A stretch of DNA of 13,625 nucleotides from a virus (IMGVR_UViG_2681813234_000008:1-13625); one strand, 5' to 3'. Positions 75-12,169 are shown, numbered from the stretch's first letter. Numbers and translations are program-made. Notes: a model not told the origin generated them from the letters alone.

Positions 75-1361
75 TTACCCCGCTTTCTTATGGGGCATGC
101 ATGGGACACTTTCAGATAGTCTTCTGTTAAGAAGTTCTATCTGTTCGTGATTGTTGTCTTTCATCCATGCTCCGTAAACATTGAATACCATTTGTGCGTT
201 TGTGTGGCCCATCTGGCTTGCGATAAAACTAGGATTAGCTCCTGCGGCAAGTGACCAGCATGCATAGGTATGCCTGGATTGATACGATTTTCTGTGTCTC
301 AGACCTGCGCGTTTTAAGATACTTGTCCATGACTCCCTGATGGAGTCAACCTTATAGTGCGGTCCGGAAAACTGCCGCTGTTTTATTACCTGAGGACTAA
401 AAACAAAAGTGCATTTATGCACAGTACTTCTCCCATATTCCCTCTGCTTTACCTCTACAGAATGCTGTTTTCCAAGCATGGTCATTTCCGCTTGGCTTTT
501 AAGAGCATCAATAGCTGGTTGAACTAGATGAATCGTTCTTCCGGTACCAGCATCAGTTTTTGGTGGAGTGAATTCGCCTAGTTTTGTATAATTCCGGCGG
601 ATGGTTATAGTCCTCGCTTTAAGGTCTATATCTTCCCAGGCCAGTGATACCAGCTCCCCGTGACGAATACCTGTGTATACAGCGATAATCCACAGGTTTT
701 TTGTTTGTTGATGACGGCAAGCCTCAATAAAACGAATAAATTCGTCACGGGTGAGGGGATCTGGTTCTATCCTGGACTTTTTTAATGGTGTCAGACCGTT
801 AAATGGATTTCCTGATGTATAACCATTATCTGTTGCAAATTGAAACATTCCAGCTATGGTTGTCATATAGTAGTTTACTGTGACCACTGAGCGTCCTTTT
901 ATGGAAGAAATTTTTCCGTTAGAAAGCTTTTGATAACCGGTCAACAGATCTCTCCTTACGAAAAGCAAATCCTCTTTTGTTACAGATGAAACCAGTCTTT
1001 TTTCACCTAACATTGGCAACATGTTTTTAATTACTGACTGGTAACGGTTAAGTGCATTTGCACAAATCTCTATTTTCTTCAGTTCAAGCCATCTTTCCGA
1101 AAGTGCTTTAATGGTTATCTCTCTTTTCCCCAGACCAAAGTGTTTCAGGTTAGGGGACTCAGGGAACTGTGCTGCATAGTCGAAACTCCCCATTCTTATT
1201 GCAAAACAAACGGAAGTGCGGAGGTCACCTGCGATTTTCCGGTTTTTGGCGGTGTCAGGAACACCGAGGTTTTCTCTGACACGTTTGCCGTTATAGTGAA
1301 ACCATATGCGGAGTGATCCGCCATGATTTTCAACGCCTGTTGGGTATGATGTATTACTCAT
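75..1361 (-). CDS. int: Tyrosine recombinase (phage integrase)
   Basis: 428-aa ORF with C-terminal catalytic signature (RHTYA, GHTNAQMVFNVYGAW with putative catalytic Tyr) and an N-terminal arm-type region (GSLRIWFHYNGKRVRE). Strong SD (GGAGG) 5 nt upstream of the ATG at 1361. Confidence 0.85.
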   Translation of the reverse strand: MSNTSYPTGVENHGGSLRIWFHYNGKRVRENLGVPDTAKNRKIAGDLRTSVCFAIRMGSFDYAAQFPESPNLKHFGLGKREITIKALSERWLELKKIEICANALNRYQSVIKNMLPMLGEKRLVSSVTKEDLLFVRRDLLTGYQKLSNGKISSIKGRSVVTVNYYMTTIAGMFQFATDNGYTSGNPFNGLTPLKKSRIEPDPLTRDEFIRFIEACRHQQTKNLWIIAVYTGIRHGELVSLAWEDIDLKARTITIRRNYTKLGEFTPPKTDAGTGRTIHLVQPAIDALKSQAEMTMLGKQHSVEVKQREYGRSTVHKCTFVFSPQVIKQRQFSGPHYKVDSIRESWTSILKRAGLRHRKSYQSRHTYACWSLAAGANPSFIASQMGHTNAQMVFNVYGAWMKDNNHEQIELLNRRLSESVPCMPHKKAG

Positions 1362-1394: not shown

Positions 1395-1649
1395 TTAACC
1401 GGAACTTGCATTTTTAACACCTGGTTGTTTCTGATTTTCGATCCAGCGCATAATTTCCTCTATGTTGTATACGCATTCACTGTTGCTCTTCGGAATTCCA
1501 TCGACAGCGTAATGTCGATATTCTTTCCCCTGTAGCCATGATTTTTTCCTGGCTCGCTCAATGGTGCCTGGTTTTAGCCCTGTCGAAGCAATGAGGGTGC
1601 TTTCTGTACACCATTTACTTGGTGTTATTTGATAGATGATTGTCTGCAT
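1395..1649 (-). CDS. xis: Excisionase-like small DNA-binding protein
   Basis: 84-aa basic ORF 33 nt upstream of int on the same strand, with SD GAGGT. Position and size fit Xis/AlpA-type directionality factors; family assignment by eye only. Confidence 0.55.
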   Translation of the reverse strand: MQTIIYQITPSKWCTESTLIASTGLKPGTIERARKKSWLQGKEYRHYAVDGIPKSNSECVYNIEEIMRWIENQKQPGVKNASSG

Positions 1650-1656
1650 GTCAACC

Positions 1657-1803
1657 TCATAAAACTTTCAGCCCACGGCAGTGGCACCACACCTCAAACA
1701 TTCGTTTCACAACTTCACGGCAGTAGAAACCGTCAACATCTCGCGTCAGGTCATAACGATTGCCGTAACGCTGGCGTACCCATAGCTCAAACGCTTTATT
1801 CAT
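1657..1803 (-). CDS. Small hypothetical protein (48 aa), not in the ORF track
   Basis: Manual translation gives MNKAFELWVRQRYGNRYDLTRDVDGFYCREVVKRMFEVWCHCRGLKVL. ATG sits 3 nt after the stop of the upstream gene with an AAGGAAG SD about 6 nt upstream; it fills the gap between the 80-aa gene and xis. Confidence 0.3.
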   Translation of the reverse strand: MNKAFELWVRQRYGNRYDLTRDVDGFYCREVVKRMFEVWCHCRGLKVL

Positions 1804-1806
1804 TCG

Positions 1807-2049
1807 CTACTTCCTTTTCATGGCTCGTAATTTTTTCAGATGAGCTTCCTGCTCTGTTTCTGCCAGAATTTGTCGGTATTCCTGGTGATCGATCCGTTCA
1901 AACGATTCATTAAAATCGTTCATTTTTACCGATTGTGTTCGCCCATCCATTCTTCTGTACAACACGGTGTTATTTATGCAGCGAATAATTTTTACTGGGT
2001 AACCGGCACTGTCGGTATACAGTTGTCCCTGATTAATCAAAGCAAACAT
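1807..2049 (-). CDS. Hypothetical protein (80 aa)
   Basis: Track ORF 1807..2172, trimmed to the internal ATG at 2049, which has an AGGAG SD about 6 nt upstream. No recognisable domain. Confidence 0.5.
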   Translation of the reverse strand: MFALINQGQLYTDSAGYPVKIIRCINNTVLYRRMDGRTQSVKMNDFNESFERIDHQEYRQILAETEQEAHLKKLRAMKRK

Positions 2050-2492: not shown

Positions 2493-3320
2493 TTATTTAA
2501 CCTGGATAAATGGCGTATTGGCGCCGCTGGTCATGTATTGCGGCAGTGTGCCGTTCCATTTATTGATGGCTTCCAGTTCCATAACTCCAGGGTTCTGGCG
2601 CAGAGCTTCACCGCGTAAACGAATAGCATCGGCTTCGGCCTGGGCTTTTGTGCGAATCGCATCAGCCTGTCCGGCAGCTTCCGCGCGCAGCATGTTGGCT
2701 TCCGCTTCGCGCTGTTTTACTTCCTGCTCGCGTTGCAGGGTTTTCTGGTTTGCCGTGACTTTGGCATTAATGCTGTCGATAACGGTTGGTGGGTACTCCG
2801 GTTTACCTACATATGAGAGGCTCACTACCTGAATACCGATGGGTGTCATTTCTGCCTGAATGTCTTTAAGAGCAGCATCCAGCAGTTCAGACTTGCCGCC
2901 GTCGATAAATTTGTCGGTGGTCATTTTGCTGGCCAGTCGGTTGAGTGCGTCGGCGATCTTCTGGCGCAGGTCGGTGTCGGTAATGTCATCCACGCCTTTG
3001 CGGTAAGTCTGAAACACCGTGGTAACTTTGGATGGATCAACTTTGTAGGCCACGCCAATGTGATAGCCGATGGTTGTACCGTCACTCATCTGGAAACTGA
3101 ACGGTTCATCGTAGGTCTTCATTTGTTTGAAGGTGGGGAAGATATAAACTTCAGTATTCCAGCCAGTCCAGTAGCGACCAACACCGACCACCTCACCGAC
3201 GCCTTTGTCGTCGCCCAGTTTATTTACCTTGATGCCAACATTACCTGGTTCAACGCGATCGCAACCGACAAGGCCAATAGTCGGCAGAACAATGGCTAAA
3301 GCAAAAATAATTTTTTTCAT
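2493..3320 (-). CDS. SPFH/Band-7 (HflK/HflC-like) lipoprotein, predicted inner-membrane anchored
   Basis: N-terminal signal peptide with lipobox LVGC followed by Asp at +2 (inner-membrane retention rule). Core resembles the HflK/HflC pattern (VEPGNVGIKVNKLG ... IGIQVVSLSYVGKPEYPPTV), followed by an Ala/Gln/Glu-rich coiled-coil tail. SD AAGGA; ATGA overlap with the upstream small gene. Confidence 0.7.
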   Translation of the reverse strand: MKKIIFALAIVLPTIGLVGCDRVEPGNVGIKVNKLGDDKGVGEVVGVGRYWTGWNTEVYIFPTFKQMKTYDEPFSFQMSDGTTIGYHIGVAYKVDPSKVTTVFQTYRKGVDDITDTDLRQKIADALNRLASKMTTDKFIDGGKSELLDAALKDIQAEMTPIGIQVVSLSYVGKPEYPPTVIDSINAKVTANQKTLQREQEVKQREAEANMLRAEAAGQADAIRTKAQAEADAIRLRGEALRQNPGVMELEAINKWNGTLPQYMTSGANTPFIQVK

Positions 3321-3505
3321 CTTTTATCCTTAGTGAAAGAAAGACCCTTGTAAATGGCATAAATGCAGGGCGGGGTCAGAAACGCCAGTGCAAAGCCAGA
3401 AATAACTGCTATCGTATCCTTCATGGATATAAGGAACGGAACGAGTAATCCGTAAATGCATGCGATAATTGCCAGTAAAATTACTATTGTGAAATACAGT
3501 CTCAT
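3317..3505 (-). CDS. Small two-helix membrane protein (62 aa), coupled to the SPFH gene
   Basis: Two hydrophobic stretches (YFTIVILLAIIACIYGLLVPFLI and IAVISGFALAFLTPPCIYAIY). Its stop overlaps the SPFH start as ATGA. Weak SD. Confidence 0.55.
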   Translation of the reverse strand: MRLYFTIVILLAIIACIYGLLVPFLISMKDTIAVISGFALAFLTPPCIYAIYKGLSFTKDKR

Positions 3506-11900: not shown

Positions 11901-11930
11901 TTGACCAGACACATTGTCCGGGGCTATATT
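11901..11930 (+). promoter_or_regulatory. Candidate late promoter pR' (-35 TTGACC, 18-bp spacer, -10 TATATT)
   Basis: Near-consensus sigma-70 hexamers 5 nt after the Q stop, followed by short hairpins and an intrinsic terminator about 75 nt downstream. Confidence 0.45.
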
Positions 11931-11990
11931 CCTCACGCGCCAGCAAAATCTGGCGTCGGGATTGGCGTCCCGGATGAAAAAGGCGACAAC

Positions 11991-12012
11991 AGACGCGCCA
12001 GCGTCTTTTTTG
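11991..12012 (+). terminator. Intrinsic terminator (tR'-like)
   Basis: Stem AGACGC / GCGTCT with loop GCCA, followed by TTTTTT. Confidence 0.5.
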
Positions 12013-12169
12013 TTGTCGTTTGCACTGTCACATCTCAATGGTGGGCTGTGTGGGGGCGGAGCGATCCGCGCCGGTTCCTTTTTCCCGGTTACGCCAACCC
12101 TGCACAGTTCACCACCATACTGATTGGCGTCAGCAGTGGTGATGATTCACATAGAAAAAGGATCATCCT

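What the first reader, a model, noticed from the sequence alone, without database searches (positions are those of the whole stretch)
1657..1803. Unannotated 48-aa ORF with a strong ribosome-binding site between the accessory operon and xis
A Cys- and Trp-containing small ORF with an AAGGAAG SD fills what would otherwise be a 157-bp gap, and ends within the xis ribosome-binding region. It may be a small regulator of excision or a zinc-binding peptide.
Basis: seen in the sequence. Interest (0 to 1): 0.35.

Follow-up and report, generated by a model that had tools for sequence, protein, structure and literature searches.

The report
Small conserved prophage gene before xis
The 48-codon reading frame is a real, conserved and already catalogued small phage gene of unknown function that sits just before the excision gene. 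It shows no sign of being a zinc-binding peptide, and relatives in other genomic positions argue against a role limited to excision.

Summary
The ORF exists as described, on the minus strand (ATG 1803, TGA 1659-1657). It fills the 157-bp gap between a DUF4222 gene and xis. Its AAGGAAG ribosome-binding site lies in the last codons of DUF4222, and its stop codon overlaps the xis ribosome-binding site (TGAGG).

It is a genuine gene:
- The frame is intact in 104 of 107 related loci.
- dN/dS is 0.03-0.12 while synonymous sites are saturated.
- AlphaFold gives a confident helix-hairpin-helix model (pLDDT 91).
- The Sakai Sp15 homologue (ECs_5743, formerly ECs5482) passes published Ribo-seq translation thresholds.

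It is not unannotated. It is identical to RefSeq WP_001030142.1 and belongs to PHROG 3871, a family of unknown function.

The zinc idea fails, because the Cys and His residues are not conserved across the family.

An excision-specific role is unlikely:
- Homologues precede six unrelated excisionase families with a conserved junction.
- A diverged subfamily lies in the nin region just before the Q antiterminator.
- One homologue is in a phage with no annotated integrase.
- A Stx2a phage lineage has deleted the gene.

Most likely it is a delayed-early accessory protein that acts on a conserved host partner, and its 3' end supplies the xis ribosome-binding site. The finding is ordinary and of low interest.

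The parts
1657..1803 (-). orf48: a 48-aa protein-coding gene, member of PHROG 3871, identical to RefSeq WP_001030142.1
   Evidence: The ORF is. It matches phrog_3871 at E=2.4e-35. PGAP annotates it. dN/dS is 0.03-0.12. The sense frame is open in all 23 distinct homologues, and codon position 3 varies about twice as much as positions 1 and 2. The AF2 model has pLDDT 91.
1810..1816 (-). Shine-Dalgarno AAGGAAG of orf48, embedded in the last codons of the upstream DUF4222 gene, with a 6-nt spacer to the ATG
   Evidence: Read directly from the sequence. Purine-rich GGAG/GGAGG/AAGGA motifs occupy the same position in homologous loci.
1655..1659 (-). The orf48 stop codon TGA overlapping the xis Shine-Dalgarno (TGAGG), 5 nt before the xis ATG
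   Evidence: Read from the sequence. A TGAGGT/TGAGGC-N3-8-ATG/GTG junction is conserved in front of six different excisionase families.
1669..1689 (-). Codons 39-45 (TGG TGC CAC TGC CGT GGG CTG), a stretch with unusually low synonymous variation in the xis-adjacent clade that contains the short palindrome GCCAC-TGCC-GTGG(C)
   Evidence: Codon entropy is 0-0.7 bits here against about 1 bit elsewhere. Arg43 is CGT in 15 of 15 sequences. The palindrome is only partly kept in Salmonella variants and shows no compensatory changes. Folding of this region is not more stable than shuffled sequence, z=+0.68. This is unexplained.
1807..2049 (-). Upstream cistron, an 80-aa DUF4222 protein whose stop codon lies 3 nt before the orf48 ATG
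   Evidence: Pfam PF13973 at E=7.6e-17. PGAP annotates it.
1395..1649 (-). Downstream cistron xis, an 84-aa DUF1233-type excisionase that starts 7 nt after the orf48 stop
   Evidence: Pfam PF06806 at E=7e-31 and phrog_539 'excisionase'.
75..1361 (-). Tyrosine integrase, the last gene of the operon; the prophage end abuts mlrA in a near-identical E. coli genome
   Evidence: Pfam Arm-DNA-bind_2 plus Phage_integrase. The context in E. coli UTAK-5 and in Sakai Sp15 is.

Best explanation
orf48 is a genuine, translated gene for a small basic cytoplasmic protein with a helix, beta-hairpin, helix fold, belonging to PHROG 3871. The family is found mainly in temperate (lambdoid) phages of Enterobacterales. 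In this window it is the second-to-last small cistron of the leftward early (pL-type) operon. By analogy with Sakai Sp15 I infer that this operon is silent in the lysogen and read through after induction.

The gene is packed so that ribosomes finishing DUF4222 can start on orf48, and ribosomes finishing orf48 stop on the xis ribosome-binding site. In cis, therefore, its 3' end is the xis translation-initiation region (this arrangement is shown by the sequence; actual coupling is inferred).

In trans, the protein most likely acts as an accessory early protein, like the many small 'ea' and 'nin' proteins. It probably binds a partner that is conserved across Enterobacterales hosts rather than a phage-specific Xis or Int (inferred). 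It is not a zinc-binding peptide and not a dedicated excision factor.
For: **Coding.**
- 104 of 107 loci keep a 44-50 codon frame.
- dN/dS is 0.03-0.12 with dS saturated.
- Only the sense frame is open in all 23 distinct homologues.
- Only 0.9% of shuffles give such an ORF.
- The AF2 model is confident: pLDDT 91, H2-13, hairpin, H30-42.

**Translation.** The Sakai homologue ECs5482 is the same gene as ECs_5743; the 135-nt coordinate shift was verified on three neighbouring genes. It has RIBOseq RPKM 38.0, coverage 0.83 and RCV 0.32 in LB, and 15.8, 0.77 and 0.38 in BHI. The published thresholds are 1, 0.5 and 0.25.

**Operon.** No promoter-like or terminator-like site was found on the minus strand between 1650 and 2100. 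The gaps on either side are 3 nt and 7 nt. In Sp15 the gene lies at the end of the run N-cIII-kil-gam-bet-exo-...-xis-int.

**Not excision-specific.**
- Nin-region homologues lie between NinG/NinH/RusA and Q.
- One homologue sits in a cluster of small accessory genes in phage vB_CfrS_K1M, which has no annotated integrase, excisionase or repressor.
- A deletion removes it from Stx2a phages and several STEC genomes.

**Host-conserved partner (inferred).** The protein stays 75-90% identical across Escherichia, Salmonella, Klebsiella, Citrobacter and Pantoea, while the adjacent Xis belongs to six unrelated families and Int identity drops as low as 30%.
Against: - No molecular function has been shown for any member. 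There is no Pfam, NCBIfam, PADLOC, PDB-sequence or PDB-fold match.
- The 'host partner' step is pure inference.
- The tight and conserved placement before xis, together with one in-frame orf48::Xis fusion, fits a link to excision better than a generic accessory role does.
- The Ribo-seq data come from an 84%-identical, 44-aa homologue in uninduced cultures, not from this prophage.
- Translational coupling was not measured.
Confidence: 0.6

Rival explanations
1. orf48 is part of the excision module. It would be a Xis-family-independent helper that tunes excision, for example by setting Xis translation through coupling, or by acting with Xis at the recombination complex (intasome) or on host factors used by all excisionases such as IHF, Fis, Lon or FtsH.
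For: - In species-representative genomes, 11 of 18 informative loci have an excisionase gene starting within about 10 nt of the orf48 stop, and 15-16 of 18 have one within two genes.
- The excisionases belong to six families: DUF1233/phrog_539, phrog_1553, AlpA-like phrog_66, PrtN/phrog_1300, phrog_2917 and PF07825.
- The TGAGG junction is conserved.
- Synonymous variation is low in the last 7 codons before the junction.
- A natural in-frame fusion of an orf48-like domain to a DUF1233 Xis was read on two contigs; the one retrieved and inspected comes from a Logan assembly.
Against: - A subfamily lies in the nin region before Q, far from xis.
- One homologue is in a phage without an annotated integrase or excisionase.
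- The gene is deleted in a widespread Stx2a-phage lineage.
- A 44-aa variant moves the stop 18 nt from the xis ATG.
- A protein partner as variable as Xis would not leave orf48 75-90% identical.
- The distal end of pL operons is a general dumping ground for accessory genes.
- The fusion is a single case among 1.84 billion representatives.
Confidence: 0.2
2. The ORF matters only in cis, as a leader cistron that delivers ribosomes to xis, and the peptide itself is irrelevant.
For: The stop codon overlaps the xis ribosome-binding site in nearly all xis-adjacent loci.
Against: - Amino-acid-level purifying selection is strong along the whole protein.
- The predicted fold is confident.
- Homologues occur in contexts without xis.
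- No stable RNA structure sequesters the xis start.
Confidence: 0.04
3. It is a zinc-binding (Cys/His) peptide.
For: The window protein has Cys28 and a Cys40-His41-Cys42 cluster.
Against: - None of these four residues is invariant, and whole clades lack them.
- There are only three Cys plus one His.
- Cys28 and Cys40/42 lie at opposite ends of a 13-residue helix in the model.
- There is no match to any zinc-finger or zinc-ribbon family or fold.
- Part of the CHC codon conservation looks like a nucleotide-level constraint rather than a protein-level one.
Confidence: 0.03
4. It is a chance ORF in a non-coding spacer.
For: Short ORFs are abundant: there are 53 of at least 30 aa in the first 4.5 kb.
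Against: All of the conservation, selection, structure and Ribo-seq evidence listed above.
Confidence: 0.01

Closest known systems
PHROG phrog_3871 (phage protein family of unknown function), which includes RefSeq WP_001030142.1, Sakai ECs_5743, Fels-1 STM0895.1n and BP-4795 ORF3
   Same: Full-length HMM match, residues 1-47 of a 48-position profile, E=2.4e-35. The window protein is 100% identical to WP_001030142.1. The position before xis is the same in Fels-1, BP-4795, VT1-Sakai and phiP27.
   Different: Nothing differs; it is a member. The family has no assigned function.
Lambda Ea8.5 and other small 'ea' genes at the distal end of the pL operon just before xis (from my own knowledge of the lambda map)
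   Same: Small, non-essential-looking, delayed-early cistron that is the last accessory gene before xis-int.
   Different: No sequence or fold relationship was detected. The Pfam, PDB-sequence and PDB-fold searches gave nothing. The conserved-cysteine metal site that I recall for the Ea8.5 fold has no counterpart here.
Small nin-region proteins of lambdoid phages (NinD/NinF/NinH class)
   Same: A diverged orf48 subfamily (65-70% identity) sits between NinG/NinH/RusA and the Q antiterminator. It is overlapped with, or within a few bases of, its neighbours there.
   Different: No HMM match to any Nin family. The window copy lies in the pL arm, not the pR arm.
Excisionases / recombination directionality factors (DUF1233, HTH_17/AlpA, PrtN-type, lambda Exc)
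   Same: Small, basic, and encoded next to int/xis.
   Different: No HMM match to any excisionase family. The predicted fold is helix-hairpin-helix, not a winged helix. Homologues occur without an integrase.
Small early phage proteins that bind host proteins, such as lambda CIII or Kil (analogy of mode of action only, from my own knowledge)
   Same: Similar size, early expression from pL, and cytoplasmic.
   Different: No sequence similarity, and no target is known for orf48. Sp15 carries its own cIII and kil in addition.

Membership tests
PHROG phrog_3871 | Significant, full-length match to the family HMM | tested here: met
   E=2.4e-35, 121.6 bits, residues 1-47 on profile positions 1-47 of 48.
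PHROG phrog_3871 | Length of about 44-50 aa and the conserved core FE.W...YG.RYDL.RD..G.Y.RE.V.RM...W | tested here: met
   Alignment A1 has invariant E6, Y17, Y27, R29, E30, R34 and W39. Lengths are 44-50 aa in 104 of 107 loci.
Excisionase / recombination directionality factor | Match to an excisionase HMM (DUF1233, Exc, HTH_17/MerR-type, PrtN-type, or the PHROG excisionase families) | tested here: not met
   The Pfam and PHROG scans of orf48 return none of these, whereas the neighbouring gene scores 7e-31 on DUF1233.
Excisionase / recombination directionality factor | Winged-helix or HTH DNA-binding fold | tested here: not met
   The AF2 model is helix 2-13, short hairpin, helix 30-42. No PDB fold match has E<1.
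Excisionase / recombination directionality factor | Always encoded together with a site-specific recombinase | tested here: not met
   Copies occur in the nin region and in phage vB_CfrS_K1M, which has no annotated integrase.
Excisionase / recombination directionality factor | Stimulates excision or inhibits integration in vivo or in vitro | not testable with these tools
   This needs genetics or biochemistry.
Zinc-binding mini-protein (zinc finger / zinc ribbon) | Four conserved Cys/His ligands in a metal-binding geometry | tested here: not met
   Cys28, Cys40, His41 and Cys42 all vary. Morganella and Xenorhabdus homologues lack them. In the model they sit at opposite ends of helix 2.
Zinc-binding mini-protein (zinc finger / zinc ribbon) | Bound metal in purified protein | not testable with these tools
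   This needs ICP-MS or a PAR assay.
Lambda Ea8.5-like proteins | Sequence or fold similarity to Ea8.5 homologues with solved structures | tested here: not met
   The profile search against PDB sequences gave only E>1. The Foldseek search against PDB gave a best E of 4.7. That Ea8.5-homologue structures are in the PDB is recalled from memory, not checked.
Translationally coupled operon cistron | Stop and start codons of neighbouring genes within a few nucleotides, with the downstream Shine-Dalgarno inside the upstream ORF | tested here: met
   The DUF4222 stop lies 3 nt before the orf48 ATG. The orf48 TGA overlaps the xis GAGG, 7 nt before the xis ATG. The arrangement is conserved.
Translationally coupled operon cistron | Downstream translation depends on upstream translation | not testable with these tools
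   This needs reporter fusions with upstream nonsense mutations.
Nin-region small proteins (Pfam NinD/NinF/NinH etc.) | HMM match to a Nin family | tested here: not met
   No Nin family appears in the Pfam scan of orf48. Only the location of a subfamily is shared.

The most novel reading that the evidence does not exclude
orf48 could be a portable 'front end' for excisionase genes. On this reading a conserved small protein, together with a conserved 3' nucleotide element (codons 39-45 plus the TGAGG junction), is swapped in front of at least six unrelated Xis families. It would set Xis output by translational coupling, and the protein itself would take part in directionality control through a host factor common to all these systems. 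The natural orf48::Xis fusion would then be a gene-fusion ('Rosetta stone') trace of that partnership.
Probability: 0.12. Interest if true: 0.55.

Novelty: already known. Interest (0 to 1): 0.2.

Why it matters
As it stands, this mainly confirms annotation. The gene is real, it is already in RefSeq and PHROGs, and older reference phage records (phiP27, VT1-Sakai) should carry it.

It adds one more widespread prophage small protein of unknown function, found in Shiga-toxin phages, Fels-1 and Klebsiella prophages. The region that contains it matches in about 15% of complete E. coli genomes.

The modest added value is the comparative picture. There is a constant small cistron and junction in front of six different excisionase families, a paralogous clade in front of Q, and one fusion to Xis. 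Together these give a cheap, testable hypothesis about how Xis translation is set in these phages. That question matters for the induction and spread of Stx phages.

Tried and rejected
- **Family scans.** Pfam, NCBIfam and PADLOC scans of orf48 gave nothing significant.
- **Structure searches.** The PDB sequence-profile search and the Foldseek-versus-PDB search gave no meaningful match; the best values were E=1.3 and E=4.7. Foldseek against the BFVD library of predicted viral structures found only one family member and weak hits to uncharacterised phage proteins.
- **Exhaustive profile search.** Only 30 representatives were found among 1.84 billion proteins. There were no informative multidomain relatives except the Xis fusion; a 993-aa repeat protein and a 204-aa repeat protein are spurious low-complexity hits.
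- **Structure of the fusion.** AlphaFold on the natural fusion P0172 without an alignment gave pLDDT 36 and was useless.
- **RNA structure at the orf48/xis junction.** It is not more stable than shuffled sequence, z=+0.68, so I dropped the idea that a hairpin sequesters the xis start.
- **Hairpin or palindrome GCCAC-N4-GTGGC.** The arms are invariant in 13 of 15 diverse sequences, but there are no compensatory changes and the element is broken in two Salmonella variants. I left it as unexplained.
- **Promoter/terminator scan.** Nothing was found on the minus strand inside or next to the ORF, so there is no support for an own promoter.
- **Literature.** Locus tags, accession numbers and the PHROG id returned no papers. 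The only experimental data found were Ribo-seq values in PMC5597208.
- **RgdR lead.** I checked whether the Ribo-seq entry ECs5420, or the rgdR locus (which carries a DUF4222 domain), holds another copy. It does not.

Full report
**1. What is there**

On the minus strand an ORF runs from ATG (1803-1801) to TGA (1659-1657). It encodes MNKAFELWVRQRYGNRYDLTRDVDGFYCREVVKRMFEVWCHCRGLKVL, 48 aa, with pI 9.3, a mass of 6.0 kDa, 3 Cys and 2 Trp.

It is one cistron in a tightly packed minus-strand array (Pfam and PHROG assignments):

| Gene | Coordinates |
|---|---|
| SPFH lipoprotein | 3320-2493 |
| DUF5406 | 2452-2081 |
| DUF4222 | 2049-1807 |
| orf48 | 1803-1657 |
| DUF1233 excisionase (xis) | 1649-1395 |
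| tyrosine integrase (int) | 1361-75 |

- The AAGGAAG motif (1816-1810) lies 6 nt before the ATG, inside the last codons of DUF4222 (AAA AGG AAG TAG cga ATG).
- The orf48 stop overlaps the xis ribosome-binding site (T-GAGG-ttgac-ATG).
- Only 0.9% of shuffles of that gap contain a complete ORF of at least 48 aa.
- No promoter-like or terminator-like site lies on the minus strand in or next to the ORF.

The corrections concern the strand, the operon membership and the word 'unannotated'.

**2. It is already annotated and catalogued**

- A 99.7%-identical prophage next to mlrA in E. coli UTAK-5 carries the ORF as WP_001030142.1, 'hypothetical protein'.
- The 1.2-kb region around it matches in 793 of 5,426 complete E. 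coli genomes.
- The protein is a full-length member of PHROG phrog_3871, function unknown, E=2.4e-35. It has no Pfam, NCBIfam or PADLOC family.
- Homologues fall into 120 clusters at 90% identity. They come from Escherichia, Shigella, Salmonella, Klebsiella, Enterobacter, Citrobacter, Cronobacter, Pantoea and others, and every one that carries a name is called 'hypothetical' or 'bacteriophage protein'.
- The family is narrow. An exhaustive profile search of 1.84 billion representatives found only 30.
- It is present in phiP27, Fels-1 (STM0895.1n), BP-4795 (ORF3), VT1-Sakai, YYZ-2008, many Stx1a and Stx2 phages and Klebsiella prophages.
- Several older records omit it, including phiP27 NC_003356 and VT1-Sakai AP000400.

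**3. It is a real, translated gene**

- Across 107 loci fetched from genomes, phage records and IMG/VR, 104 keep an intact 44-50 codon frame.
- Against the window copy, dN/dS is 0.03-0.12. Synonymous sites are saturated in most comparisons while the protein stays 75-90% identical.
- The sense frame is the only one open in all 23 distinct sequences. Codon position 3 varies about twice as much as positions 1 and 2.
- AlphaFold2 with the family alignment gives a confident model: pLDDT 91, helix 2-13, short hairpin around residues 21-27, helix 30-42.

Experimental support comes from published Ribo-seq data.
- The Sakai Sp15 homologue ECs_5743 (NC_002695.2 positions 2942155-2942289, 44 aa, 84% identical) is the gene listed as ECs5482 (2942020-2942154) in Hücker et al. 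2017.
- The 135-nt coordinate shift between genome versions is verified by ECs2997, ECs3004 and ECs3006. The amino-acid composition also fits.
- Its values exceed the paper's thresholds:

| Condition | RIBOseq RPKM | Coverage | RCV |
|---|---|---|---|
| LB | 38.0 | 0.83 | 0.32 |
| BHI | 15.8 | 0.77 | 0.38 |
| Threshold | 1 | 0.5 | 0.25 |

- In Sp15 the gene lies at the far end of the N-cIII-kil-gam-bet-exo-...-xis-int operon. This supports delayed-early expression from pL, by analogy.

**4. Testing the two proposed functions**

*Zinc binding.* The alignment shows invariant E6, Y17, Y27, R29, E30, R34 and W39, but none of Cys28, Cys40, His41 or Cys42.
- Morganella and Xenorhabdus homologues read YAREIVRRMFEVWRAAKG.
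- Salmonella variants read WRYLRG or WRYCHG.
- Pantoea copies have CECKG.
- In the model, Cys28 and Cys40/42 lie at opposite ends of a 13-residue helix.
- No zinc-finger family or fold matches.

I reject this reading.

*Excision regulator: the positional evidence is real.* In species-representative genomes the gene directly precedes an excisionase in 11 of 18 informative loci, and lies within two genes of one in 15-16 of 18. The excisionases belong to six different families:
- DUF1233 / phrog_539
- phrog_1553 (HTH_17)
- AlpA-like phrog_66
- PrtN-type PF11112 / phrog_1300
- phrog_2917
- lambda-type Exc PF07825

The junction TGAGG(T/C)-N3-8-ATG/GTG is kept throughout. One metagenomic phage has an in-frame fusion of an orf48-like domain to a DUF1233 Xis, followed by int.

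*Excision regulator: the evidence against.*
- A diverged subfamily (65-70% identity) sits at the end of the nin region, between NinG/NinH/RusA and the Q antiterminator. It is overlapped with, or within a few bases of, its neighbours there too.
- A 74%-identical copy lies in a cluster of small accessory genes (with DUF551 and DUF2591) in Citrobacter phage vB_CfrS_K1M. That phage has no annotated integrase, excisionase or repressor.
- A lineage of Stx2a phages and STEC genomes carries a deletion of about 240 bp. It joins the head of DUF4222 to the tail of orf48.
- A common 44-aa variant arises from a 1-nt deletion and ends 18 nt before xis.
- orf48 stays highly conserved while Xis and Int partners are swapped for unrelated ones. 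I infer that any protein partner is a conserved host component rather than a specific Xis or Int.

**5. Best reading**

orf48 is a small, basic, folded, delayed-early accessory protein of lambdoid phages. It occupies the last slot before a key downstream gene: xis in the pL arm, Q in the pR arm.
- In cis, its 3' end provides the xis ribosome-binding site and probably couples xis translation to upstream translation. The arrangement is shown by the sequence; the coupling is inferred.
- In trans, its target is unknown and probably host-encoded (inferred).
- My confidence that it is a real, translated gene of this family is above 0.95. My confidence in the mechanistic part is about 0.35.

**6. An unexplained detail**

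In 15 diverse xis-adjacent copies, codons 39-45 (TGG TGC CAC TGC CGT GGS CTG; window 1689-1669) show almost no synonymous variation.
- Arg43 is CGT in 15 of 15, whereas other Arg codons in the gene vary freely.
- The stretch contains the palindrome GCCAC-TGCC-GTGGC. The three substitutions seen among those 15 fall in the loop or outside the arms.
- Salmonella variants keep it only partly, with one G-U change and two broken pairs. There are no compensatory changes.
- The region does not fold better than shuffled sequence.

It could be a nucleotide-level element linked to xis expression. It could equally be a short homology tract at the joint where int-xis modules are exchanged. I could not decide between these.

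**7. Comparison with known systems, and verdict**

The protein is a member of PHROG 3871.
- It resembles lambda's small 'ea' and 'nin' accessory genes in position and size, but it has no detectable sequence or fold relationship to them or to anything in the PDB.
- It fails the defining tests for an excisionase and for a zinc-binding mini-protein.

The finding is real but ordinary, and the gene is already known as a hypothetical protein. Interest is low. The only lead with some novelty is the constant cistron-plus-junction in front of six excisionase families, together with the single Xis fusion.

Noticed in passing
window 11924-12119 (+): Rfam gathering-level matches to isrK (79 bits), C4 antisense RNA (74 bits) and the c4 a1/b1 target sites. 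This is a P1/P7-type antisense immunity and antirepressor control module inside this lambdoid prophage.
   Followed up: no
window 1669-1689 (-): The last codons of orf48 (TGG TGC CAC TGC CGT GGG CTG) show almost no synonymous variation in 15 diverse xis-adjacent homologues. They contain the palindrome GCCAC-N4-GTGG(C). There is no covariation, the element is partly broken in Salmonella, and it is not thermodynamically notable.
   Followed up: partly
L027 3962-4336 (Logan DRR526068 contig): A natural in-frame fusion of an orf48-like N-terminal domain to a DUF1233 excisionase, followed by an integrase. A deletion of about 25 nt removed the usual stop and spacer.
   Followed up: partly
L003 (LC567818 Stx2a phage) 1372-1510; also the E. 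coli genomes listed as hits H51-H60: A deletion of about 240 bp joins codons 1-41 of DUF4222 to the out-of-frame tail of orf48. Both genes are therefore lost in a widespread Stx2a-phage lineage, while the TGAGG-xis junction remains.
   Followed up: partly
L002 (phiP27 NC_003356) 1647-1790; VT1-Sakai AP000400 54165-54296: Reference phage records lack the gene although it is 94% and 84% identical. phiP27 also carries over-extended, overlapping calls for L03 and L04 where PGAP calls DUF4222 (80 aa) and DUF5406 (123 aa).
   Followed up: yes
L011 (contig titled Chryseobacterium sp. 18061); phage record OM284015 'Elizabethkingia phage EKP1': Homologues that are 79-83% identical sit in Enterobacterales-type prophage context but are attributed to Flavobacteriia hosts. 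I suspect contamination or a wrong host assignment.
   Followed up: no
window 1807-2049 (-): The upstream neighbour is a DUF4222 protein. The same Pfam domain is reported in RgdR (Sakai ECs1581), a prophage-encoded activator of the LEE type III secretion system (PMC10877973). Pairwise similarity to RgdR is weak (E=0.11), and the rgdR locus has no orf48 copy next to it.
   Followed up: partly
window 2493-3505 (-): A 62-aa predicted membrane protein (3505-3317) overlaps by 4 nt the start of a 275-aa SPFH/Band-7 lipoprotein (3320-2493). Neither matches PADLOC. This accessory pair is conserved in phiP27 and in Stx phages.
   Followed up: no
L022 (Morganella morganii CP173058) 3001-3012: The orf48 homologue carries a nonsense codon at position 4. 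It is the only point-mutation pseudogene among the 107 loci.
   Followed up: no
L084-L086, L102, L105; Sakai ECs_5743: A common 44-aa variant arises from a 1-nt deletion in GGGCTG, giving GGC TGA. The old TGAGG junction is left 12 nt downstream, so the last four residues (LxVV) are dispensable.
   Followed up: yes
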